Shown here: positions 4,409 through 64,000 of the stretch, piece by piece | How the letters are laid out: each line of letters starts with the position of its first letter | Position numbering within the stretch: position 1 is the stretch's first letter | NCBI RefSeq assembly: GCF_988243305.1 | Contig: NZ_OZ547136.1 | Strand: one strand, 5' to 3' | DNA: 64,000 bases | Made by a program: the position numbers and the translations under genes | Notes under the pieces: model-generated | Told to the model about the DNA's origin: nothing | The model's input: the letters and a program-made list of their open reading frames with translations, nothing else | Databases searched by the model: none

Positions 4409-5530
4409 TTATGACTCCAGCGCGATCGCCACGTCGTAGCCGTGAGATTTCAGCAGAGAGTGTTTTTTCGCCGCTTCGAGGTCATTAGCCACCATTTCAG
4501 ACACCATCTCTCTGAGGGTGATTTCCGGTTTCCAGCCCAGTTTTTCGTGCGCTTTGGTCGGGTCGCCGAGCAGCGTTTCAACTTCTGCCGGACGGAAGTA
4601 ACGCGGGTCAACGGCGATAATCACATCACCCGGTTTAACGCCCGGCGCGTCATGCCCGGTGACGGAAACCACAATGCCCTTCTCTTCAACACCCGTGCCT
4701 TCAAAGCGCAGTTTGATGCCCAGCTGTGCTGCCGCCATTTCCACGAACTGACGTACGGAGTACTGAACGCCGGTAGCGATAACAAAATCTTCCGGCTGTT
4801 CCTGTTGCAGCATCATCCACTGCATTTTTACGTAGTCTTTGGCATGGCCCCAGTCACGCAGGGAATCCATATTGCCGAGGTACAGACACGACTCCAGCCC
4901 CTGGGCGATGTTGGCGATTGCGCGGGTGATTTTGCGGGTAACGAAGGTTTCACCGCGGCGCGGGGATTCATGGTTGAAGAGAATACCGTTACAGGCGTAC
5001 ATGCCGTAGGATTCGCGGTAGTTAACGGTGATCCAGTAGGCGTACAGTTTGGCGACCGCATACGGAGATCGCGGGTAGAACGGCGTGGTCTCTTTCTGCG
5101 GAATTTCCTGCACCAGACCATACAGTTCAGAGGTGGAAGCCTGATAGAAACGAGTTTTCTTTTCCAGACCGAGGAAGCGGATCGCCTCCAGCAGGCGCAG
5201 CGTACCCATCGCGTCGACGTCAGCGGTATATTCTGGTGACTCAAAAGAGACCGCAACGTGGCTCATTGCGCCCAGGTTGTACACTTCATCCGGCTGTACT
5301 TCACGCAAAATGCGCGTCAGGTTAGAGGTATCACTCAGGTCGCCATAATGCAGATGGAATTTCGGGTTGCAGGTGTGCGGATCCTGATAAATGTGATCCA
5401 CGCGCTCGGTGTTGAATGACGATGCGCGACGCTTAATACCATGCACCTCGTAACCTTTTTCCAGCAGAAACTCTGCCAGGTAAGAACCGTCTTGTCCGGT
5501 TACACCGGTGATGAGAGCGACTTTTGACAT
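4409..5530 (-). CDS. gmd: GDP-mannose 4,6-dehydratase
   Basis: 373-aa [38 protein letters not shown], a canonical Gmd N-terminus. Confidence 0.93.
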
Positions 5531-53041: not shown

Positions 53042-54094
53042 TCAGGCGATAGTAATTTTGCTATCGAGATAAACGTCCTGCACGGCGTTAATCAGTTTCA
53101 CGCCGTCAGCCATCGATTTCTTGAACGCCTTACGTCCAAGAATCAGCCCCATTCCGCCAGCGCGTTTGTTGATGACCGCAGTACGCACTGCATCGCTGAG
53201 GTCAGTTTCACCGCCTGCAGCACCGCCGGAGTTTATCAACCCTGCCCGGCCCATATAGCAGTTAGCTAACTGATAACGCACCAGATCAATCGGGTTTTCG
53301 CTGGTCAATTTGCTATAAACACGATCGTCGGTATAACCGTAATTAATCGCTTTATAGCCGCCGTTATTTTCCGCCATTTTTTGTTTGACGATATCCGCAC
53401 CTATAGTCGCCGCCAGATGGTTTGCCTGACCGGTCAGGTCGGCGGAAACATGGTAATCAACGCCATCTTTCTTAAAGGCGGAGTTACGCAAATAGGCCCA
53501 CAGCACTGTCACCATGCCCAGCTCGTGCGCACGTTCAAAAGCCGCAGAAATTTCTTCAATCTGGCGTCGTGACTCTTCCGAGCCAAAATAGATAGTCGCC
53601 CCAACCGCCACCGCGCCCATGTTGAACGCCTGCTCCACGCTGGCATACAGCGTTTGATCGTAGGTATTCGGGTAACTTAGCGTCTCGTTGTGATTAAGTT
53701 TGACGAGGAATGGAATGCGATGCGCGTAACGCCGCGATACCGACGCCAGCACGCCGTAAGTTGACGCCACGCAGTTACAGCCCGCTTCGATCGCCAGTTC
53801 AACAATGTTTTTCGGGTCAAAGTAGAGCGGGTTAGCGGCAAATGAAGCTCCGGCAGAGTGCTCAACGCCCTGGTCAACCGGCAGAATAGAAAGATATCCT
53901 GTGCCAGCCAGACGCCCAGTGTTGTACAACGTCTGCATATTACGTAACACCGCTGGCGGGCGATTATTGTCAATCATCACGCGGTCTACGTAGTCATGTC
54001 CGGGGAGATAAAGCTGGTCAGAAGGAATAGTCATACAACGGTGCTGTAAAAGGTTGTCGGCGTCTTTGCCAAGCAACTGCGCAATATCTGTCAT
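53042..54094 (-). CDS. fbaB: Fructose-bisphosphate aldolase class I
   Basis: Track ORF 374 aa; I start at [32 protein letters not shown] (350 aa, ATG 54092-54094). Confidence 0.9.
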
Positions 54095-54350
54095 TACTAT
54101 GCTCCCGTAAATTCCGATTGGATATCGGCTATGGATTGTCCTGGCCCGCCTTTTGCGGGCAATCATAATCCTGGTCGTTACAGGCGAGTTTTTCCATCTT
54201 TTGGATGTTTTTTCAGCGTTTTCTGTTGGCTCGATTCATCAGAAAAAATGTTACCGCGGTCAAGTTTTCACCGCAAAGGTATTTAAAAGGTATTATTAAA
54301 TGGTATTGTCATCGCGTACCTTACATTACCTGTCATGAAGGAATTAAAAG

Positions 54351-55628
54351 ATGAAAACAACAGCAAAGCTGTCGTTCATGATGTTTGTTGAATGGTTTAT
54401 CTGGGGCGCGTGGTTTGTGCCATTGTGGTTGTGGTTAAGTAAAAGCGGTTTTAGTGCCGGAGAAATTGGCTGGTCGTATGCCTGTACCGCCATTTCGGCG
54501 ATCCTGTCGCCAATTCTGGTTGGCTCCATCACTGACCGCTTTTTCTCGGCGCAGAAAGTGCTGGCGGTATTGATGTTCGCTGGCGCGGTACTGATGTATT
54601 TCGCTGCGCAACAGACCACTTTTGCCGGGTTCTTCCCGTTACTGCTGGCCTACTCGCTAACCTATATGCCGACCATTGCGCTGACTAACAGTATCGCTTT
54701 TGCCAACGTGCCGGATGTGGAGCGTGATTTCCCACGCATTCGTGTGATGGGCACTATCGGCTGGATTGCCTCCGGTCTGGCATGTGGATTTTTGCCGCAA
54801 ATGCTGGGTTATGCCGATATCTCTCCGACTAACATCCCGCTGCTGATTACCGCCGGAAGTTCTGCTCTGCTCGGTGTGTTTGCGTTTTTCCTGCCCGACA
54901 CGCCGCCAAAAAGCACCGGCAAAATGGACATTAAAGTCATGCTCGGCCTGGATGCGCTGATCCTGCTGCGCGATAAAAACTTCCTCGTCTTTTTCTTCTG
55001 TTCATTTCTGTTTGCGATGCCACTGGCGTTCTATTACATCTTTGCCAACGGTTATCTGACCGAAGTTGGCATGAAAAACGCCACCGGCTGGATGACGCTC
55101 GGCCAGTTCTCTGAAATCTTCTTTATGCTGGCATTGCCGTTTTTTACCAAACGCTTTGGTATCAAAAAGGTATTATTGCTTGGTCTGGTCACCGCTGCGA
55201 TCCGCTATGGCTTCTTTATTTACGGTAGTGCGGATGAATATTTCACCTACGCGTTACTGTTCCTCGGTATTTTGCTTCACGGCGTAAGTTACGATTTTTA
55301 CTACGTTACCGCTTACATCTATGTCGATAAAAAAGCCCCCGTGCATATGCGTACCGCCGCGCAGGGGCTGATCACGCTCTGCTGCCAGGGCTTCGGCAGT
55401 TTGCTCGGCTATCGTCTTGGCGGTGTGATGATGGAAAAGATGTTCGCTTATCAGGAACCGGTAAACGGGCTGACCTTCAACTGGGCCGGGATGTGGACTT
55501 TTGGCGCGGTGATGATTGCCATTATCGCCGTGCTGTTCATGATTTTTTTCCGCGAATCCGACAACGAAATTACGGCTATCAAGGTCGATGATCGCGATAT
55601 TGCGTTGACACAAGGGGAAGTTAAATGA
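54351..55628 (+). CDS. yegT: Nucleoside:H+ symporter-family MFS transporter YegT
   Basis: 425-aa hydrophobic ORF MKTTAKLSFMMFVEWFIWGAWFVPLWLWL, resembling the NupG/XapB family. Confidence 0.85.
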   Translation: MKTTAKLSFMMFVEWFIWGAWFVPLWLWLSKSGFSAGEIGWSYACTAISAILSPILVGSITDRFFSAQKVLAVLMFAGAVLMYFAAQQTTFAGFFPLLLAYSLTYMPTIALTNSIAFANVPDVERDFPRIRVMGTIGWIASGLACGFLPQMLGYADISPTNIPLLITAGSSALLGVFAFFLPDTPPKSTGKMDIKVMLGLDALILLRDKNFLVFFFCSFLFAMPLAFYYIFANGYLTEVGMKNATGWMTLGQFSEIFFMLALPFFTKRFGIKKVLLLGLVTAAIRYGFFIYGSADEYFTYALLFLGILLHGVSYDFYYVTAYIYVDKKAPVHMRTAAQGLITLCCQGFGSLLGYRLGGVMMEKMFAYQEPVNGLTFNWAGMWTFGAVMIAIIAVLFMIFFRESDNEITAIKVDDRDIALTQGEVK

Positions 55629-56629
55629 AAACAGAACGTATTCTCGGTGCTCTTTACGGGCAGGCGTTAGGGGATGCGATGGGGATGCCCTCCGAGCTTT
55701 GGCCACGCAGCCGCGTTAAAGCACACTTTGGCTGGATTGACCGTTTTCTGCCTGGACCAAAGGAGAATAACGCGGCCTGTTATTTTAACCGCGCCGAATT
55801 CACCGACGATACCTCGATGGCGCTGTGTCTGGCGGATGCGTTGCTGGAACGTGAAGGCAAGATCGATCCGGATCTGATTGGGCGTAATATTCTCGACTGG
55901 GCGCTACGTTTCGACGCCTTCAACAAAAACGTGCTAGGTCCGACCTCGAAGATTGCGCTTAACGCCATTCGCGACGGTAAACCCGTTGCTGAACTGGAAA
56001 ACAACGGCGTGACCAACGGCGCAGCGATGCGCGTCTCGCCATTAGGTTGTTTGCTTCCGGCGCGCGATGTTGATTCCTTTATTGATGATGTGGCGCTGGC
56101 GTCCAGCCCGACCCATAAATCCGATCTGGCGGTTGCAGGTGCGGTAGTCATCGCGTGGGCAATTTCTCGTGCCATTGACGGAGAAAGCTGGTCAGCGATT
56201 GTTGATTCTCTACCCTCGATTGCGCGACATGCACAGCAAAAACGCATCACCACCTTCAACGCCTCACTGGCGGCGCGGCTGGAGATTGCGCTGAAAATTG
56301 TGCGCAATGCCGACGGCACCGAATCCGCCAGCGAACAGCTTTACCAGGTCGTTGGCGCAGGTACCAGCACTATTGAGTCCGTTCCGTGCGCCATTGCGCT
56401 GGTTGAACTGGCTCAAACCGACCCGAACCGTTGCGCCGTCCTGTGCGCTAACCTTGGCGGCGACACAGACACCATCGGTGCTATGGCAACAGCAATTTGC
56501 GGCGCGTTGCATGGCGTTAAAGCAATCGATCCTGCGTTAAAGACGGAACTGGATGCGGTAAATCAGCTTGATTTCAACCGCTATGCCACAGCGCTGGCGA
56601 AATATCGTCAACAACGGGAGGCGGTATGA
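55625..56629 (+). CDS. yegU: ADP-ribosylglycohydrolase-family protein YegU
   Basis: 334-aa ORF MKTERILGALYGQALGDAMGMP, the typical DraG/ARH family N-terminus; overlaps the yegT stop by 4 nt. Confidence 0.85.
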   Translation: MKTERILGALYGQALGDAMGMPSELWPRSRVKAHFGWIDRFLPGPKENNAACYFNRAEFTDDTSMALCLADALLEREGKIDPDLIGRNILDWALRFDAFNKNVLGPTSKIALNAIRDGKPVAELENNGVTNGAAMRVSPLGCLLPARDVDSFIDDVALASSPTHKSDLAVAGAVVIAWAISRAIDGESWSAIVDSLPSIARHAQQKRITTFNASLAARLEIALKIVRNADGTESASEQLYQVVGAGTSTIESVPCAIALVELAQTDPNRCAVLCANLGGDTDTIGAMATAICGALHGVKAIDPALKTELDAVNQLDFNRYATALAKYRQQREAV

Positions 56630-57591
56630 GCGGCGCTCGATTACACACGCTGCTGCCTGAATTAACCACGCGTCAGTCGGTGATGGTCGTCGGCGCGGCG
56701 GTCATTGACGTGATCGCCGACGCTTATGCCCTCCCCTGGCGTGGGTGCGATATCGAACTGAAACAGCAGAGCGTTAACGTTGGCGGCTGCGCACTGAATA
56801 TTGCCGTGGCGTTAAAGCGCCTCGGCATCGAAGCGGGTAATGCCCTGCCGCTCGGTCAGGGCGTGTGGGCGGAGATTATTCGCAACCGGATGGCGAAAGA
56901 GGGGTTAATCAGCCTGATCGATAACGCTGAAGGCGATAACGGCTGGTGTCTGGCGCTGGTTGAGCCGGATGGCGAACGCACTTTTATGTCATTCAGTGGT
57001 GTGGAAAATCAGTGGAATCGCGAATGGCTGGCGCGATTAACCGTTGCGCCTGGCAGCCTGCTCTATTTTTCCGGTTATCAACTGGCCTCGCCCTGCGGCG
57101 AATTGTTAGTGGAATGGCTGGAAGAGCTGCAAGACGTGACGCCGTTTATCGATTTTGGCCCACGTATTGGTGATATCCCGGATGCATTACTTGCGCGGAT
57201 CATGGCCTGTCGACCTGTCGTATCACTCAATCGTCAAGAGGCTGAGATTGCCGCCGAACGTTTTGCTTTATCCGCAGAGATAACAACGCTTGGCAAGCAA
57301 TGGCAGGAAAAATTTGCCGCGTCGTTGATCGTTCGTCTCGATAAAGAAGGTGCCTGGTATTTCAGCGACAACACGTCAGGCTGCGCTCCCGCATTTCCAA
57401 CGCAAGTTGTAGACACCATTGGCGCAGGTGATAGCCACGCAGGTGGCGTACTTGCCGGGCTGGCCTCCGGTCTGCCACTGGCGGATGCCGTATTACTGGG
57501 CAATGCAGTGGCATCGTGGGTTGTCGGACATCGGGGCGGTGATTGCGCGCCGACGCGCGAGGAACTACTCCTCACACACAAAAACGTATAG
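56626..57591 (+). CDS. yegV: PfkB-family carbohydrate/nucleoside kinase YegV
   Basis: 321-aa ORF with the PfkB C-terminal motif DTIGAGDSHAGG; overlaps the yegU stop by 4 nt. Confidence 0.85.
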   Translation: MSGARLHTLLPELTTRQSVMVVGAAVIDVIADAYALPWRGCDIELKQQSVNVGGCALNIAVALKRLGIEAGNALPLGQGVWAEIIRNRMAKEGLISLIDNAEGDNGWCLALVEPDGERTFMSFSGVENQWNREWLARLTVAPGSLLYFSGYQLASPCGELLVEWLEELQDVTPFIDFGPRIGDIPDALLARIMACRPVVSLNRQEAEIAAERFALSAEITTLGKQWQEKFAASLIVRLDKEGAWYFSDNTSGCAPAFPTQVVDTIGAGDSHAGGVLAGLASGLPLADAVLLGNAVASWVVGHRGGDCAPTREELLLTHKNV

Positions 57592-58311
57592 ATCGCTACG
57601 ACAGTGGCTGATGCTGTACTCAATAGGCCGTTGCTGTTGGTCAAGTGCCACTTGCTTGATCACCAGCACCGGTATTTTGCTATCTAACTGAATATGTGAC
57701 TGAAACTCAGCATCCGGCATTCGGGCGCTAACACGGGAACGGGTACGCTTTGGAAAAATATGCTGACTGCGAAAGTAGTCATAGAGAGAAATACCGATGG
57801 CATCAACATCATGAATTAAATGCGCCGGAACCCACGATTCCTCAATGGATACCGCGTCTTCATCGACATAGCGAATACGCTTAAGCAAAAAGACATCACT
57901 GCCCGCTTCGACCGCCAGTTGCTGCGCCACCTCTTCAGGGCATTTAACCACTCGCTTGTTAACCCACAGCGTATCGGGCTTTTTCCCGCGCAACACCACC
58001 TGTTGAGAAAAACCTCGCGCTTCTTTCAACGAGTATTCAAAGATGTTGTTGATCTGCGTGCCGTAACCACGCGAACGTGTCACCACGCCCTCTTCTTCCA
58101 GCGCCTGCATCGCCTTGCGCACCGTAATACGCGAAACGCCGGTTAACTGACTTAAATCACGCTCGCCGGGTAAAATATTGCCATGTTCCAGCACCCCGCT
58201 GCGCACGGCATTTTTTACCGTTTCGGCAAACTTAATATAAAGCGGCGTGTTGTCCGCCGCTAAAATACGTTCATTCAGTTGAGCAATAAGCTGGGTATGC
58301 GCTTGTTCCAT
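57565..58311 (-). CDS. yegW: GntR/HutC-family transcriptional regulator YegW
   Basis: 248-aa ORF with an N-terminal GntR HTH (LPGERDLSQLTGVSRITVRKAMQALEEEGVV) and a UTRA-like C-terminal domain. Confidence 0.85.
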   Translation of the reverse strand: MEQAHTQLIAQLNERILAADNTPLYIKFAETVKNAVRSGVLEHGNILPGERDLSQLTGVSRITVRKAMQALEEEGVVTRSRGYGTQINNIFEYSLKEARGFSQQVVLRGKKPDTLWVNKRVVKCPEEVAQQLAVEAGSDVFLLKRIRYVDEDAVSIEESWVPAHLIHDVDAIGISLYDYFRSQHIFPKRTRSRVSARMPDAEFQSHIQLDSKIPVLVIKQVALDQQQRPIEYSISHCRSDLYVFVCEE

Positions 58312-58362
58312 TTGTCTTTTTCCAGGCGATGAGTCTGGAGGAAGTATATCACTGCTGGTTAT

Positions 58363-59181
58363 TTAAGGCGTTTCTTTAATGTCATCAACGAAAGCCTGCA
58401 ATTCCTCCACCTTGCCATTAAACACATTAAAATCCACCGGACCATTAATGCCATCTACCTGTCCACGGTCGGAATGCTGCCAGAAGTGCCAGGCCATTCC
58501 GTCATTGTCCGGACGACGTTGATAATAGTGCGCCACCCACCACGGATACTCATTGAAATACCCCGCCAGATTCGTGTGATAAAACACGGCTCCGGAGTAA
58601 ATAATCGGCTTTTTTCCCGTGCTTTTTTCGACCATTTTTAGCCACTGACTTACCCGCTTGCGTAATTCTTTTGCCGATAATTTTCCTCGCTCTTCTACGT
58701 CCAGCACGGCAGGGAAATCGCCGTGGGCAAAATCCACCGTTTGCAGAAATAATCTGGCCTGAACTGAAGCGGATACCGACGGGGAAAAATAATGATACGC
58801 CCCGCGCAGCAGGCCATTTTCGCGGCTTAGTTGCCAGTTACGCGAAAAATAGGGGTCCACCAGCTTTTCGCCTTCCGTCGCCTTAATAAAGGCAAATTGT
58901 AAGCGAATACCGTTATCGCGCATTTTTGCCACCCGCTGCCAGTCGATCCGTTCCTGCCAGCGCGAAACATCTATTCCGTGAATGGTGTAACTGGCAGGAA
59001 TGCGAATAGCGAAAGATTTAACCGGGCGATAACCGTAGAAGTGGATGTAGTCTTTAATCTGAATTGCTGTCGAATAGAAAAAATTCACCGTCTGACGCGG
59101 ATGAATCGCAACGATGGAAATTAGCCCAAGAGAGCATAATAAAGCGGTGAATTTTTTTCGACTGGTGATTCTAAGCTGCAT
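58363..59181 (-). CDS. yegX: Glycoside hydrolase family 25 (lysozyme-like) protein YegX
   Basis: Start placed at MQLRITSRKKFTALLCSLGLISIV (272 aa); an ATG three codons upstream (59188-59190) is an alternative. GH25-like DVSRWQ motif after the signal/anchor sequence. Confidence 0.8.
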   Translation of the reverse strand: MQLRITSRKKFTALLCSLGLISIVAIHPRQTVNFFYSTAIQIKDYIHFYGYRPVKSFAIRIPASYTIHGIDVSRWQERIDWQRVAKMRDNGIRLQFAFIKATEGEKLVDPYFSRNWQLSRENGLLRGAYHYFSPSVSASVQARLFLQTVDFAHGDFPAVLDVEERGKLSAKELRKRVSQWLKMVEKSTGKKPIIYSGAVFYHTNLAGYFNEYPWWVAHYYQRRPDNDGMAWHFWQHSDRGQVDGINGPVDFNVFNGKVEELQAFVDDIKETP

Positions 59182-59245
59182 TGGTTTCATCCCTGAATGT
59201 CAGCGCCAAAGACTGACAATAACCAAAGCAGCTATAGTAAGGTGC

Positions 59246-60046
59246 TCACCACCACGCGTGGAAGTGGTGAACCGGACCAATACCGTGACCAACTTCCAGC
59301 GTGTCGGCCTGGGCTAACGCCGATGAAAGCCAGCTTTTTGCCTCCTGTACGGTGTCAGCCCAGTTTGTATGGCGCGGGCGTAGTGCAGCCAACGCCGCAG
59401 AGAGTGTACAACCAGTGCCGTGGGTGTTTTTGGTCATAATGCGCGGTGCGGTAAACCGTTGTTCACCCTCGCGGGTAAACAGCCAGTCCGGGCTTTGCTC
59501 ATCATCCAGATGACCACCTTTCATTAGCACTGCGCCACAGCCCATCGCCAACAGCGATCGCCCTTGTTCCAGCATTTCCTGTTCGGTGCGCGCGTGTGGC
59601 GCGTCGAGCAAGGCGGCAGCTTCGGGCAAGTTTGGCGTTATTAATGAAACCTGTGGCAATAATCGACTGCGCAGCGTAGCAACCGCCGAAGGTGAAAGCA
59701 GCGGGTCGCCGCTTTTTGCCAGCATAACGGTGTCGAGTACCACGTTTTGGATCTGATAACGTTGCAACCTTTCTGCCACCGCTTCAACAATATCGGTTTC
59801 CGCCAACATACCGATTTTAGTGGTGTCGATTCGCACATCGCTGAACACCGAATCGAGCTGGGCGGCGACAAAATCAGGCTCAATGCGATACACCGACTGT
59901 ACGCCACGGGTATTTTGCGCCACCAGTGCAGTAATCACTGAGCAACCATAAGCGCCAAGTGCCGAGAAGGTTTTAAGATCGGCCTGAATCCCCGCACCAC
60001 CACTCGGATCAGTACCGGCAATCGTCAGAGCGTTAATTCGTTTCAT
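59246..60046 (-). CDS. thiD: Hydroxymethylpyrimidine/phosphomethylpyrimidine kinase
   Basis: 266-aa [37 protein letters not shown], a canonical ThiD N-terminus. Confidence 0.93.
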
Positions 60047-60831
60047 GCCTGCACCTCCTGCGTCAATTGCCAGAGCGCATCAAGGAAATGTGGAACAAAA
60101 CTGCCTGGCCCCTCGCTTCTGGCGGCTGCGCGTTCTCCGGCTTGTTTCATCCAGTGACAGGCAGATGCGACATTTTCCAGCATATCGCCTGGTAACGCAC
60201 AACAGGCAGCGACAACCGCCGATAATGCACAGCCAGTTCCTACCACTTTGGTCATTAACGGATCGCCACCGTGAATACCAATGATACGATGTCCATCGGT
60301 AACATAATCCATCTCGCCAGTGACCACGACGATTGCGCCAGTTTCCCGTGCCAGTGTTTGTGCAGCGGGTATCGCGTTAGCTGCGGCGTCAGTGGTATCC
60401 ACTCCCCGTCCACCATTAGCAACGCCAGCTAATGCCATGATTTCCGAAGCATTACCACGTATGGCGGTTGGCTTATGAGACAGAAGTTCCAGACAAAAAC
60501 GGCGGCGATAATCGAGTGCACCCACCGCTACTGGATCAAGCATCCAGGGTGTTTGAGAGCGTTTTGCCTGTTCAACGGCGGCACGCATCGCCTGTGCGCG
60601 TGGCTGCGTCAGTGTGCCAACGTTAATCAGCAACGCACTGGCGATAGCCGCAAACTGACTGGCCTCTTCGGTTTCGATGACCATTGCTGGCGATGCACCG
60701 AGCGCCAGTAAGGTATTGGCAGTAAAGGTTTGCACCACATCGTTGGTCATGCAGTGCACAAGAGGGGAATGTTGGTGAAAAAGGTGTAACGCGTGCGCAG
60801 ATTGCGCGGAACTCAGCAGGTCGACTTGCAT
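60043..60831 (-). CDS. thiM: Hydroxyethylthiazole kinase
   Basis: 262-aa [39 protein letters not shown]; 4-nt overlap with thiD. Confidence 0.93.
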
Positions 60832-60975
60832 AGTTTGCTCCTGCCATAACGTGAAGAAGCAATGACCTGGTGGTCCGTGACTTCCCTACGCTGGCATTAT
60901 CCAGATCAGGTGATACGGGTATTTCTCAGCCTTCACGCAGAAGGGCACCCCGAGTCGTTTGATTGCGATGATAAA
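60832..60975 (-). promoter_or_regulatory. TPP (thi-box) riboswitch in the thiM 5' leader
   Basis: Reverse complement of ~60878-60955 reads GACTCGGGGTGCCCTTCTGCGTGAAGGCTGAGAAATACCCGTATCACCTGATCTGGATAATGCCAGCGTAGGGAAGTC, containing the conserved CTGAGA and thi-box core and lying directly upstream of thiM. Confidence 0.9.
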
Positions 60976-61053
60976 TCGCAGAGGAGGATGGTAATGTCCA
61001 GCGCACGCGTTGTAAACGAGGAAAAACGGCAGTTTTACAATAGCGTTAATAAA

Positions 61054-61326
61054 TTATTTGATATAAGAATCCAGCACCTTCAGAACGACATCCAGATCTT
61101 CTTCACGTTTTAGCTCATCCCCCTGGTGAACGATGTGTTCCGTCAGATGACCTTTAATCACTTCCCGCATCAGACCGTTTACCGCGCCACGGATAGCAGC
61201 AATCTGTTGTAAAACTGCAGCGCATTCGTGCGGCTCGTCGAGCATTTTCTTGAGCGCCACGACCTGGCCCTGAATCTTACTGGCACGCGCTTTCAGTTTC
61301 TGTTTATCACGGATGGTATGAGACAT
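61054..61326 (-). CDS. rcnR: Ni(II)/Co(II)-responsive transcriptional repressor RcnR (CsoR/RcnR family)
   Basis: 90-aa [32 protein letters not shown]...; divergent from rcnA. Confidence 0.92.
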
Positions 61327-61374
61327 GGCAACACCTGGTTAATAAGAATATGAAAAATCATAGCACTATTAATC

Positions 61375-61409
61375 TACTGGGGGGTAGTATCAGGTACTGG
61401 GGGGGAGTA
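61375..61409. promoter_or_regulatory. Two RcnR operator sites (TACT-G6/7-N-AGTA) in the rcnR-rcnA intergenic region
   Basis: TACTGGGGGGTAGTA at 61375-61389 and TACTGGGGGGGAGTA at 61395-61409, read directly; matches the known G-tract-containing RcnR operator. Confidence 0.85.
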
Positions 61410-61446
61410 GAATCAGATTGCCGAATTAATACTAAGAATTATTATC

Positions 61447-62271
61447 ATGACCGAATTTACAACTCTTCTTCAGCAAGGAAACGCCTGGTTCTTCATCCCC
61501 AGCGCCATCTTACTTGGTGCGCTTCATGGCCTGGAACCAGGGCACTCAAAAACGATGATGGCGGCGTTTATCATCGCCATCAAAGGCACCATTAAACAGG
61601 CGGTGATGCTCGGACTGGCAGCAACCATTTCGCATACCGCAGTGGTCTGGTTGATTGCCTTTGGCGGGATGGTGATCAGCAAGCGCTTTACTGCTCAATC
61701 AGCAGAACCGTGGCTCCAGTTGATTTCCGCAGTGATCATTATTGGCACCGCGTTCTGGATGTTCTGGCGTACCTGGCGCGGCGAACGAAACTGGCTGGAG
61801 AATATGCACGAGCATGATCATGAGCATCATCACCACGATCACGAAGATCACCACGACCATGGACATCATCACCATCACGAACATGGCGAGTATCAGGATG
61901 CCCATGCACGAGCCCATGCCAATGACATTAAACGACGCTTTGATGGTAGAGAGGTCACCAACTGGCAAATTTTGTTATTTGGCTTAACCGGTGGCCTTAT
62001 CCCCTGCCCGGCAGCAATTACCGTGCTGTTGATTTGCATTCAGTTGAAAGCCCTGACACTGGGCGCAACACTGGTCGTCAGTTTCAGCATTGGCCTGGCG
62101 TTAACGCTGGTCACCGTAGGCGTTGGCGCAGCAATCAGCGTTCAGCAGGTCGCAAAACGCTGGAGCGGATTTAACACTCTCGCTAAACGCGCCCCCTATT
62201 TTTCCAGTCTGTTGATTGGCTTAGTTGGTGTGTATATGGGCGTACATGGCTTCATGGGCATAATGCGATAA
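61447..62271 (+). CDS. rcnA: Nickel/cobalt efflux protein RcnA with His-rich cytoplasmic loop
   Basis: 274-aa ORF MTEFTTLLQQGNAWFFIPSAILLGALHGLEPGHSK with the loop HEHDHEHHHHDHEDHHDHGHHHHHEHGEY. Confidence 0.93.
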   Translation: MTEFTTLLQQGNAWFFIPSAILLGALHGLEPGHSKTMMAAFIIAIKGTIKQAVMLGLAATISHTAVVWLIAFGGMVISKRFTAQSAEPWLQLISAVIIIGTAFWMFWRTWRGERNWLENMHEHDHEHHHHDHEDHHDHGHHHHHEHGEYQDAHARAHANDIKRRFDGREVTNWQILLFGLTGGLIPCPAAITVLLICIQLKALTLGATLVVSFSIGLALTLVTVGVGAAISVQQVAKRWSGFNTLAKRAPYFSSLLIGLVGVYMGVHGFMGIMR

Positions 62272-62489
62272 CTCAATCCTTTAGGCTTGCATGTTATCTT
62301 CAGCCCAGGATGATTCTTAAATCAGCTATTTCCGCTGACTCTCTGCTCGCTAAGGATGCTTTTAGGGCATCCTTTCATTTACACTTTTTACGAAATCATG
62401 GGATCACTAACAAAATATCGCTTGTCAGTTATATTGTATGGCAGGAAAGATATGCGACTGATATTACAGATCCCCAAAGTGGAGAGTTT

Positions 62490-62670
62490 ATGACCATTAA
62501 AAATAAGATGTTGCTGGGTGTGCTTTTGCTGGTTACCAGTGCCGCCTGGGCCGCACCAGCCACCGCGGGTTCGACCAATACCTCGGGAATTTCTAAGTAT
62601 GAGTTAAGCAGTTTCATTGCTGACTTTAAGCATTTCAAACCAGGCGATACCGTCCCAGAGATGTACCGCA
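62490..62670 (+). pseudogene. rcnB: rcnB (yohN) 5' fragment, interrupted after about codon 60 by IS10
   Basis: MTIKNKMLLGVLLLVTSAAWAAPATAGSTNTSGISKYELSSFIADFKHFKPGDTVPEMYR, then the frame runs into IS10 terminal sequence (..IRRSPHNFPKA*). RBS ggagag precedes the ATG at 62490. The remainder of the gene would lie beyond the window. Confidence 0.8.
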
Positions 62671-63999
62671 TAAGGAGATCCCCTCATAATTTCCCCAAAG
62701 CGTAACCATGTGTGAATAAATTTTGAGCTAGTAGGGTTGCAGCCACGAGTAAGTCTTCCCTTGTTATTGTGTAGCCAGAATGCCGCAAAACTTCCATGCC
62801 TAAGCGAACTGTTGAGAGTACGTTTCGATTTCTGACTGTGTTAGCCTGGAAGTGCTTGTCCCAACCTTGTTTCTGAGCATGAACGCCCGCAAGCCAACAT
62901 GTTAGTTGAAGCATCAGGGCGATTAGCAGCATGATATCAAAACGCTCTGAGCTGCTCGTTCGGCTATGGCGTAGGCCTAGTCCGTAGGCAGGACTTTTCA
63001 AGTCTCGGAAGGTTTCTTCAATCTGCATTCGCTTCGAATAGATATTAACAAGTTGTTTGGGTGTTCGAATTTCAACAGGTAAGTTAGTTGCTAGAACCCA
63101 TGGCTCCTTTGCCGACGCTGAGTAGATTTTAGGTGACGGGTGGTGACAATGAGTCCGTGTCGAGCGCTGATTTTTTCGGCCTTTAGAGCGAGATTTATAC
63201 AATAGAATTTGGCATGAGATTGGATTGCTTTTAGTCAGCCTCTTATAGCCTAAAGTCTTTGAGTGACTAGATGACATATCATGTAAGTTGCTGATAGGTT
63301 TCCAGTTTTCCGCTCCTAGGTCTGCATATTGTACTTTTCCTCTTACTCGACTTAACCAGTACCAACCCAGCTTCTCAACGGATTTATACCATGGCACTTT
63401 AAAGCCAGCATCACTGACAATGAGCGGTGTGGTGTTACTCGGTAGAATGCTCGCAAGGTCGGCTAGAAATTGGTCATGAGCTTTCTTTGAACATTGCTCT
63501 GAAAGCGGGAACGCTTTCTCATAAAGAGTAACAGAACGACCGTGTAGTGCGACTGAAGCTCGCAATACCATAAGTCGTTTTTGCTCACGAATATCAGACC
63601 AGTCAACAAGTACAATGGGCATCGTATTGCCCGAACAGATAAAGCTAGCATGCCAACGGTATACAGCGAGTCGCTCTTTGTGGAGGTGACGATTACCTAA
63701 CAATCGGTCGATTCGTTTGATGTTATGTTTTGTTCTCGCTTTGGTTGGCAGGTTACGGCCAAGTTCGGTAAGAGTGAGAGTTTTACAGTCAAGTAATGCG
63801 TGGCAAGCCAACGTTAAGCTGTTGAGTCGTTTTAAGTGTAATTCGGGGCAGAATTGGTAAAGAGAGTCGTGTAAAATATCGAGTTCGCACATCTTGTTGT
63901 CTGATTATTGATTTTTGGCGAAACCATTTGATCATATGACAAGATGTGTATCTACCTTAACTTAATGATTTTTACCAAAATCATTAGGGGATTCATCAG
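62671..63999 (-). mobile_element. IS10 insertion sequence (IS4 family), about 1329 bp
   Basis: Right terminus at 63999 matches the IS10 outside end (reverse complement CTGATGAATCCCCTAATGATTTTGGTAAAAATCATTAAG). Left end contains GAGATCCCCTCATAATTTCCCCAAAGCGTAACC, the IS10 inside end. Left junction is placed to within a few nt. Confidence 0.88.
62684..63892 (-). CDS. IS10 transposase
   Basis: 402-aa ORF MCELDILHDSLYQFCPELHLKRLNSLTLACHALLDCKTLTLTELGRNLPTKARTKHNIKRIDRLLGNRHLHKERLAVYRWH..., full length and apparently intact. Confidence 0.93.
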   Translation of the reverse strand: MCELDILHDSLYQFCPELHLKRLNSLTLACHALLDCKTLTLTELGRNLPTKARTKHNIKRIDRLLGNRHLHKERLAVYRWHASFICSGNTMPIVLVDWSDIREQKRLMVLRASVALHGRSVTLYEKAFPLSEQCSKKAHDQFLADLASILPSNTTPLIVSDAGFKVPWYKSVEKLGWYWLSRVRGKVQYADLGAENWKPISNLHDMSSSHSKTLGYKRLTKSNPISCQILLYKSRSKGRKNQRSTRTHCHHPSPKIYSASAKEPWVLATNLPVEIRTPKQLVNIYSKRMQIEETFRDLKSPAYGLGLRHSRTSSSERFDIMLLIALMLQLTCWLAGVHAQKQGWDKHFQANTVRNRNVLSTVRLGMEVLRHSGYTITREDLLVAATLLAQNLFTHGYALGKL

Positions 64000-64000
64000 T

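What the first reader, a model, noticed from the sequence alone, without database searches (positions are those of the whole stretch)
62490..63999. IS10 insertion disrupting rcnB (yohN) downstream of rcnA
The rcnB reading frame is intact for about 60 codons and then runs into IS10 terminal sequence; a full-length, apparently intact IS10 with its transposase follows, its outside end at 63999. RcnB is a periplasmic protein that, as I recall, modulates Ni/Co efflux by RcnA, so this strain is probably rcnB-null. IS10 derives from Tn10, so its presence also hints at a strain history involving Tn10 or an active IS10 population. The first ~4 nt at the inside end did not match the canonical terminus as I remember it, so the junction needs checking.
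Basis: partly seen in the sequence, partly recalled or inferred. Interest (0 to 1): 0.5.

Follow-up and report, generated by a model that had tools for sequence, protein, structure and literature searches.

The report
IS10 insertion knocking out rcnB
A common jumping gene (IS10) has landed in the middle of rcnB, a small accessory gene of the nickel/cobalt export system of E. coli. This is an ordinary gene knockout, except that this IS10 copy has four non-standard bases at one tip and still seems to have moved.

Summary
rcnB starts at 62490 and matches intact rcnB up to 62670 (60 codons). A 1,329-bp IS10 follows at 62671-63999. It has an intact 402-aa DDE transposase, RNA-OUT and an exact IS10-Right outside end.

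A draft genome that is 100% identical over the 8.6 kb to the left has the uninterrupted site. None of 5,426 complete E. coli genomes has this junction. The insertion is therefore recent and lineage-specific. It splits the RcnB Pfam domain, so rcnB is very probably null. The published phenotype of an rcnB deletion is more Ni/Co resistance.

The far-side target duplication cannot be seen because the window ends one base after IS10. That base fits the expected duplicate.

Bases 1-4 read TAAG instead of CTGA; the rest is identical to canonical copies. The same 1,329-bp variant occurs in only 2 of 5,426 genomes, at another locus. There it is flanked by a perfect 9-bp duplication, and the empty site is present in other strains. 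So TAAG belongs to the mobile unit, and the variant has probably transposed without the conserved CTG tip.

IS10 occurs in 36% of complete E. coli genomes, so no Tn10 history is implied. This is an ordinary knockout with a minor mechanistic curiosity.

The parts
61054..61326 (-). rcnR, the Ni/Co-responsive repressor; intact, 90 aa
   Evidence: ORF. The same position is annotated rcnR in L001 and L019.
61447..62271 (+). rcnA, the Ni/Co efflux protein; intact, 274 aa, with a His-rich loop. It lies upstream of the insertion.
   Evidence: ORF. Annotated rcnA in syntenic loci.
62490..62670 (+). 5' fragment of rcnB: 60 native codons plus 1 nt, including the signal peptide
   Evidence: 100% match to rcnB of many E. 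coli, ending at 62670. Compared with intact rcnB.
62662..62670 (.). Insertion target 9-mer TGTACCGCA, expected to be repeated after 63999
   Evidence: It is the last 9 bp before the IS. It matches the NGCTNAGCN preference at 3 of 6 positions, within the 3-5 of 6 range of nine other IS10 target duplications.
62671..62705 (+). IS-encoded tail of the truncated RcnB fusion ORF (IRRSPHNFPKA plus stop)
   Evidence: Translation. The 71-aa fusion has no Pfam match.
62671..63999 (-). IS10, 1,329 bp. The inside end is on the left, the outside end on the right, and the transposase is on the minus strand.
   Evidence: 1,329/1,329 identical to the L002 and L003 copy. It differs from canonical L008 only at nt 1-4. 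Canonical copies have the same span.
62671..62674 (.). Non-canonical inside-end tip TAAG (canonical CTGA)
   Evidence: The variant 30-mer is found in 2 of 5,426 genomes. The canonical 30-mer is found at 4,853 places.
62675..62693 (.). Inside-end inverted repeat, bp 5-23; canonical. It includes the Dam site GATC at 62677-62680.
   Evidence: Sequence. Identical to canonical copies.
62684..63892 (-). IS10 transposase gene; 402 aa, intact
   Evidence: Pfam PF01609 DDE_Tnp_1, E=1.5e-24. The DNA-identical L002 copy is annotated WP_001339197.1.
63885..63954 (+). RNA-OUT antisense RNA gene of IS10, transcribed towards the outside end
   Evidence: Rfam RF00240, 99.5 bits against a gathering score of 41, full length.
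63977..63999 (-). Outside-end inverted repeat CTGATGAATCCCCTAATGATTTT; exact
   Evidence: It matches the published IS10-Right outside-end oligonucleotide quoted in PMC2705183.
64000..64000 (.). First base beyond IS10 (T), consistent with the start of the duplicated TGTACCGCA
   Evidence: It is a single base, so this is only weak support.

Best explanation
**What happened (inferred from junctions and comparisons).** A single IS10 copy inserted by ordinary cut-and-paste transposition into codon 61 of rcnB, at the target TGTACCGCA. This happened recently, in a lineage whose close relatives still have the empty site.

**Effect on the Rcn system (inferred; no phenotype was measured).**
- rcnR and rcnA are untouched.
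- rcnB now encodes its signal peptide, about 38 mature residues and 11 foreign residues. It lacks 41 of the 50 residues of the RcnB domain.
- The accessory periplasmic protein is therefore lost.
- From published rcnB deletions, RcnA-dependent efflux should be less restrained. The strain should hold less Ni/Co and tolerate more.

**The element itself.**
- It is an IS10-Right-type copy whose inside-end bases 1-4 are TAAG instead of CTGA.
- The TAAG tip is part of the mobile unit (shown at the second locus).
- The region that the cited paper maps as the transposase-binding site (bp 7-23) is unchanged.
- I infer that transposase still binds and cuts at the usual distance from that site, probably inefficiently. 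That would explain why the variant is at two unrelated chromosomal sites yet is extremely rare.
For: **Junction and anatomy:**

**Empty site in the same lineage:** L025 is 8,628/8,628 identical to window 54043-62670 and continues with an intact rcnB.

**No other genome has the junction:** 0 of 5,426 complete genomes.

**Domain split:** the RcnB domain covers residues 52-101, and the fusion protein has no Pfam hit.

**Phenotype of rcnB loss:** PMC7917058.

**Variant tip**
- The same 1,329 bp occurs in strains 142 and S103EC at another locus, with the perfect 9-bp duplication TGCTCTGCA.
- The reconstructed empty site matches 800/800 in two other strains and at 98% or more in 30 further genomes.
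- The host flank in the window is at most 98.0% identical to any complete genome, including those two strains. The IS is 100% identical.
- The canonical tip is found at 4,853 places against 2 for the variant.
- Missing-nucleoside interference maps transposase binding to bp +7 to +23 (PMC3159471).
Against: - The right-hand junction is outside the window. A simple insertion with a 9-bp duplication is supported there by only one base.
- No experiment shows that the 71-aa fusion is inactive.
- T+2 of the Tn10 end is the flipped base used in hairpin formation and resolution (PMC2705183). As I recall, mutations at bp 1-3 strongly reduce Tn10 transposition (Huisman 1989; Haniford and Kleckner 1994; not read here). 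A TAAG tip would therefore be expected to be badly impaired.
- Only two independent sites of the variant are known. Strains 142 and S103EC are identical over 7.3 kb and count as one.
Confidence: 0.8

Rival explanations
1. The IS10 is not a simple insertion. It marks the edge of a larger rearrangement: an IS10-mediated deletion or inversion, an inside-out composite, or recombination between two IS10 copies. In that case the DNA beyond 64000 is not the 3' part of rcnB.
For: The window stops one base after the element, so the second junction is unseen. A tip expected to be poorly cleaved could favour aberrant products (PMC1885676 mentions single-end breaks).
Against: Base 64000 (T) fits the expected duplicate. 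The 9-mer before the IS is a typical IS10 target. The sister genome shows normal synteny, rcnB then yehA. The variant made a clean 9-bp duplication at its other site.
Confidence: 0.12
2. TAAG is not part of a mobile variant. It is a local post-insertion mutation, or a sequencing or assembly error, of a canonical IS10 end.
For: Four adjacent substitutions next to a Dam site look odd. The variant was not found in plasmids, phages, GTDB representative genomes or metagenome contigs.
Against: The identical 4-nt change sits in an otherwise identical 1,329-bp element in two independently sequenced genomes at a different locus. 4,853 canonical ends in the same kinds of assemblies show no systematic error. 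An independent identical 4-nt change at two sites is very improbable.
Confidence: 0.04
3. The insertion is not a null allele. The exported 60-residue N-terminal fragment, or a C-terminal fragment expressed from pOUT read-out, retains RcnB function.
For: The signal peptide and 9 residues of the domain remain. RNA-OUT/pOUT points into the 3' remnant.
Against: The Pfam domain (residues 52-101) is split after residue 60, and the fusion no longer matches the family. Any C-terminal fragment would lack a signal peptide, whereas RcnB acts in the periplasm (PMC7917058, citing Bleriot 2011).
Confidence: 0.04

Closest known systems
IS10-Right of Tn10 (IS4 family; named 'ISVsa5 family' by NCBI PGAP)
   Same: - Length of 1,329 bp.
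- 402-aa DDE transposase and RNA-OUT.
- Exact outside end, and inside-end bp 5-23 with the Dam site.
- The body is 100% identical to common E. coli copies.
- 9-bp duplication at the variant's other locus.
- GC-rich symmetric target preference.
   Different: Inside-end bp 1-4 are TAAG instead of CTGA. This removes the conserved CTG tip and the T+2 base that is flipped during hairpin formation and resolution.
Engineered rcnB (yohN) deletion mutants of E. coli K-12 (Bleriot et al. 2011; PMC7917058)
   Same: Loss of the periplasmic accessory protein while rcnR and rcnA stay intact. The expected phenotype is lower Ni/Co accumulation and higher resistance.
   Different: This is a natural IS insertion in a non-K-12 lineage. 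It leaves a 60-residue N-terminal fragment and places IS10 promoters inside the operon. No phenotype was measured.
Terminal-base-pair mutants of Tn10/Tn5 ends studied in vitro
   Same: The change is confined to the cleavage-proximal bases, with the transposase-binding region intact.
   Different: Those are laboratory single or double substitutions, reported as defective. This is a natural 4-bp block substitution that appears at two genomic sites.

Membership tests
IS10 (IS4 family) | Element of 1,329 bp | tested here: met
   62671-63999. The span equals that of eight other complete copies.
IS10 (IS4 family) | Single 402-aa DDE transposase | tested here: met
   Intact ORF at 62684-63892. PF01609. 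Its DNA is identical to the copy annotated WP_001339197.1.
IS10 (IS4 family) | Outside-end inverted repeat CTGATGAATCCCCTAATGATTTT | tested here: met
   Exact match at 63977-63999. It equals the published IS10-Right oligonucleotide.
IS10 (IS4 family) | Inside-end inverted repeat CTGAGAGATCCCCTCATAATTTCC with a Dam site | tested here: inconclusive
   Bp 5-23 and the GATC site are identical, but bp 1-4 are TAAG, not CTGA. The terminal CTG is not met.
IS10 (IS4 family) | RNA-OUT antisense control at the outside end | tested here: met
   RF00240, 99.5 bits.
IS10 (IS4 family) | 9-bp target-site duplication | not testable with these tools
   The window ends at 64000, and only 1 of the 9 bases is visible (it is consistent). 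The feature is met for the identical variant copy in L002 and L003.
RcnB (PF11776) functional protein | Complete RcnB domain (residues 52-101) behind a signal peptide | tested here: not met
   The domain is interrupted after residue 60, and the 71-aa fusion has no Pfam hit.
Tn10 composite transposon | Outside ends of IS10 face the chromosome, with tet genes between two inverted IS10 copies | tested here: not met
   rcnB abuts the inside end. There is only one IS10 end of each type in the 64 kb. The DNA beyond 64000 is unseen.

The most novel reading that the evidence does not exclude
The TAAG-tipped element is a naturally occurring IS10 that is still transposition-competent, although it lacks the conserved terminal CTG and the flipped T+2 at its inside end. 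If so, IS10 transposase sets its cleavage position by distance from its bp 7-23 binding site and tolerates, at low efficiency, an arbitrary terminal tetranucleotide. The tetranucleotide may have been captured from donor flanking DNA after a 4-bp terminal loss.
Probability: 0.6. Interest if true: 0.4.

Novelty: new variant of a known kind. Interest (0 to 1): 0.3.

Why it matters
**For the strain.** It predicts a natural rcnB-null phenotype, with altered nickel/cobalt homeostasis and probably higher tolerance. A near-isogenic rcnB+ relative is available for comparison.

**For transposition biology.** The terminal CTG, including T+2, is treated as needed for the hairpin chemistry of Tn10/Tn5-type transposases. 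Here a natural copy has all of bp 1-4 replaced. It is still found at two unrelated sites, one with a clean 9-bp duplication and a documented empty site. This gives a cheap, direct test of how strict that requirement is in vivo.

Otherwise the finding is routine: IS10 is in about a third of E. coli genomes, and insertions in non-essential genes are common.

Tried and rejected
- **Looking for the source genome or the far junction.**
  - An exact look-up of the 71-aa fusion ORF found nothing.
  - The 55-aa C-terminal ORF is on record in 13 contigs. All 10 shown use the native Met58 ATG. Several contigs start there, apparently because of a GAG/GAA SNP, not IS10.
  - The variant 26-mer is absent from GTDB representative genomes, JGI metagenomes and IMG/VR. 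The variant 30-mer is absent from plasmids and phages.
- **Extra-long BLAST matches.** The matches in H1, H5, H6 and H13 might have been further variant copies. All are canonical CTGA copies whose target sites happen to resemble ...CCGCA.
- **Origin of TAAG.** The target region of the strain-142 copy seemed to resemble IS10 ends, which might have hinted at a templated origin. The local alignment score was within the range of shuffles, so I rejected this.
- **ISVsa5 or IS10-Left as a natural TAAG end.** There is no support. Five IS10 copies from other genera all start CTGA, and no plasmid, where Tn10 copies would be expected, has the variant end.
- **EPI300 lab copy as a Tn10 reference.** It turned out to be a different subtype at a deletion boundary and was not useful.
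- **Primary papers.** I could not read the primary papers on terminal-base mutants (PMC125497) or on RcnB (PMC3147525), because they are not held.

Full report
**1. What is in the sequence**

The region reads thiD-thiM (with a TPP riboswitch), rcnR (61054-61326, minus strand), rcnA (61447-62271) and then rcnB, which starts at 62490. This matches the gene order annotated in other E. coli.

Homology to intact rcnB is 100% in many genomes and stops exactly at 62670. In intact genes the sequence continues ...ATGTACCGCA|CCGATGAGTAC. In the window it continues |TAAGGAGATCCCCTCATAATTTCCCC. The frame therefore carries 60 native codons and then 11 foreign ones (IRRSPHNFPKA), with a stop at 62703-62705.

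**2. The inserted element**

The element occupies 62671 to 63999, which is 1,329 bp. It has four recognisable parts:
- an exact outside end, CTGATGAATCCCCTAATGATTTT, ending at 63999. This agrees with the IS10-Right outside-end oligonucleotide printed in PMC2705183;
- RNA-OUT at 63885-63954, 99.5 bits;
- an intact 402-aa ORF at 62684-63892 on the minus strand, carrying the DDE_Tnp_1 domain;
- inside-end bases 5-23 with the Dam GATC site.

Eight other complete copies, from E. coli and three other genera, span the same 1,329 bp and have 9-bp target duplications. The window copy differs from one of them (L008) only at its first four bases. The element is IS10. It is the only copy in the 64 kb.

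**3. Is it an insertion, and how old is it?**

No complete E. coli genome (0 of 5,426) carries the rcnB-IS10 junction.

The chromosomal flank is unusual among complete genomes. The best identity is 98.0%, and the differences are spread evenly. An exact look-up of the window's ThiM protein found draft assembly GCA_029483465.1. Its contig is 8,628/8,628 identical to window 54043-62670 and runs straight through an intact 112-aa rcnB. This is an empty site in the same lineage, so the insertion is recent.

The 9 bp before the element, TGTACCGCA, resemble other IS10 targets such as AACTCCGCA, CGTGCCGCA and TACGCCGCA. They score 3 of 6 against the NGCTNAGCN preference, which I recall from Halling and Kleckner 1982. 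Nine other duplications scored 3-5 of 6.

The duplicate copy cannot be checked because the window ends at 64000. That base is T, as expected. The window may end there because a source contig ended at a repeat edge, but I could not test this.

**4. Consequence for rcnB**

Pfam places the RcnB domain at residues 52-101 of the intact protein. The 71-aa fusion no longer matches the family.

rcnA and rcnR are intact. RNA-OUT, and from memory the pOUT promoter, point rightwards into the 3' remnant. Any product from there would lack a signal peptide.

Published work reports that deleting rcnB lowers Co accumulation and raises Ni/Co resistance (PMC7917058, citing Bleriot et al. 2011). I therefore infer a null allele with that phenotype. 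Nothing was measured here.

**5. The odd inside end**

The tip is TAAG where canonical copies have CTGA.

How rare is it?
- A 30-nt query that only a TAAG-type end can seed found 2 of 5,426 complete genomes (strains 142 and S103EC) and no plasmid or phage.
- The exact 26-mer is absent from GTDB representative genomes, JGI metagenome contigs and IMG/VR.
- The canonical 30-mer occurs at 4,853 places in 1,021 genomes.
- Five copies in Aeromonas, Shewanella, Providencia, Vibrio and Xenorhabdus all start CTGA.

Is TAAG part of the element?
- In strains 142 and S103EC the element is 1,329/1,329 identical to the window copy.
- It lies at a different locus and is flanked by a perfect TGCTCTGCA duplication.
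- I joined its flanks with a single copy of that 9-mer. The result matched 800/800 in two other strains and at 98% or more in 30 further genomes.
- TAAG is therefore inside the inserted unit, not flanking DNA.
- The two strains are identical over 7.3 kb, so they count as one event.

With the window copy, the variant is now known at two unrelated chromosomal sites. The hosts differ by at least 2% in flanking DNA, while the element is identical. The simplest reading is that the TAAG form existed before at least one of these insertions and transposed.

**6. Why that is mildly surprising**

In Tn10 the T at +2 is flipped out after the first nick. Removing it from the helix is needed for hairpin formation. 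Its stacking on W265 is needed for efficient hairpin resolution (PMC2705183). Loss of that interaction gives imprecise hairpins (PMC1885676). From memory, substitutions at bp 1-3 spare binding but strongly reduce transposition (Huisman 1989; Haniford and Kleckner 1994; not read here).

The binding region mapped by interference, bp +7 to +23, is untouched in the variant (PMC3159471). I infer that transposase binds normally and cuts at the usual distance, but inefficiently. This fits the extreme rarity of the variant.

How TAAG arose is unknown. One possibility is loss of the terminal 4 bp followed by capture of 4 flanking bases. I found no evidence for it. An apparent resemblance between the strain-142 target and IS10 ends was no better than shuffled controls.

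**7. The Tn10 inference**

IS10 sequence is present in 1,968 of 5,426 complete E. coli genomes. It is full length in 1,174, with a median of 2 and up to 45 places per genome. Its presence is not a sign of laboratory Tn10 history. In addition, rcnB abuts the inside end, which is not how the edge of an intact Tn10 would look.

**8. Verdict**

It is a recent, lineage-specific IS10 insertion that most probably inactivates rcnB. It is ordinary as a class of event.

The one unusual point is the non-canonical, apparently still mobile inside end. The main open item is the unseen right-hand junction. I give a rearrangement instead of a simple insertion about 0.12.

Noticed in passing
window 35000-62670: The chromosomal backbone is at most 98.0% identical to any of 5,426 complete RefSeq E. 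coli, with differences spread evenly. It is 100% identical over 8.6 kb to draft assembly GCA_029483465.1 and 99.93% to GCA_045572375.1. The lineage seems unrepresented among complete genomes.
   Followed up: partly
window 64000: The window ends exactly one base after the IS10 outside end. This may mean that the source record is a contig that stops at a repeat edge. In that case the IS body could be a collapsed consensus of several copies.
   Followed up: no
window 60866-60962 (-): TPP riboswitch upstream of thiM (Rfam RF00059, 71.8 bits), as annotated in other E. coli.
   Followed up: yes
window ~52930; L019 18048-18506: Strain Br_167_kylling carries an IS200/IS605 tnpA between gatY and fbaB. 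The window lacks it, giving a ~700-bp gap in the alignment.
   Followed up: no
L029 (E. coli EPI300, NZ_CP189566.1 782432-783760): This laboratory-strain IS10 copy has no target duplication and sits between nanC and a truncated opgB, so it is likely a deletion boundary. It differs from the window copy at outside-end positions 24, 25 and 27, which I recall as the IS10-Left type.
   Followed up: partly
L010, L011, L014, L016, L017 (metagenome/Logan contigs): Several independent contigs begin 1-2 nt before the Met58 codon of rcnB. The base just upstream is a GAG/GAA polymorphism, which probably breaks mixed-strain assemblies. This is unrelated to IS10.
   Followed up: partly
L002 2100-2760 (strain 142, left of its IS10): The variant IS10 in strains 142 and S103EC sits in an island with a truncated GTPase gene and a transposase fragment. 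Part of the flank is a multi-copy repeat in E. coli: 9,410 places matched the 800-nt empty-site query.
   Followed up: no
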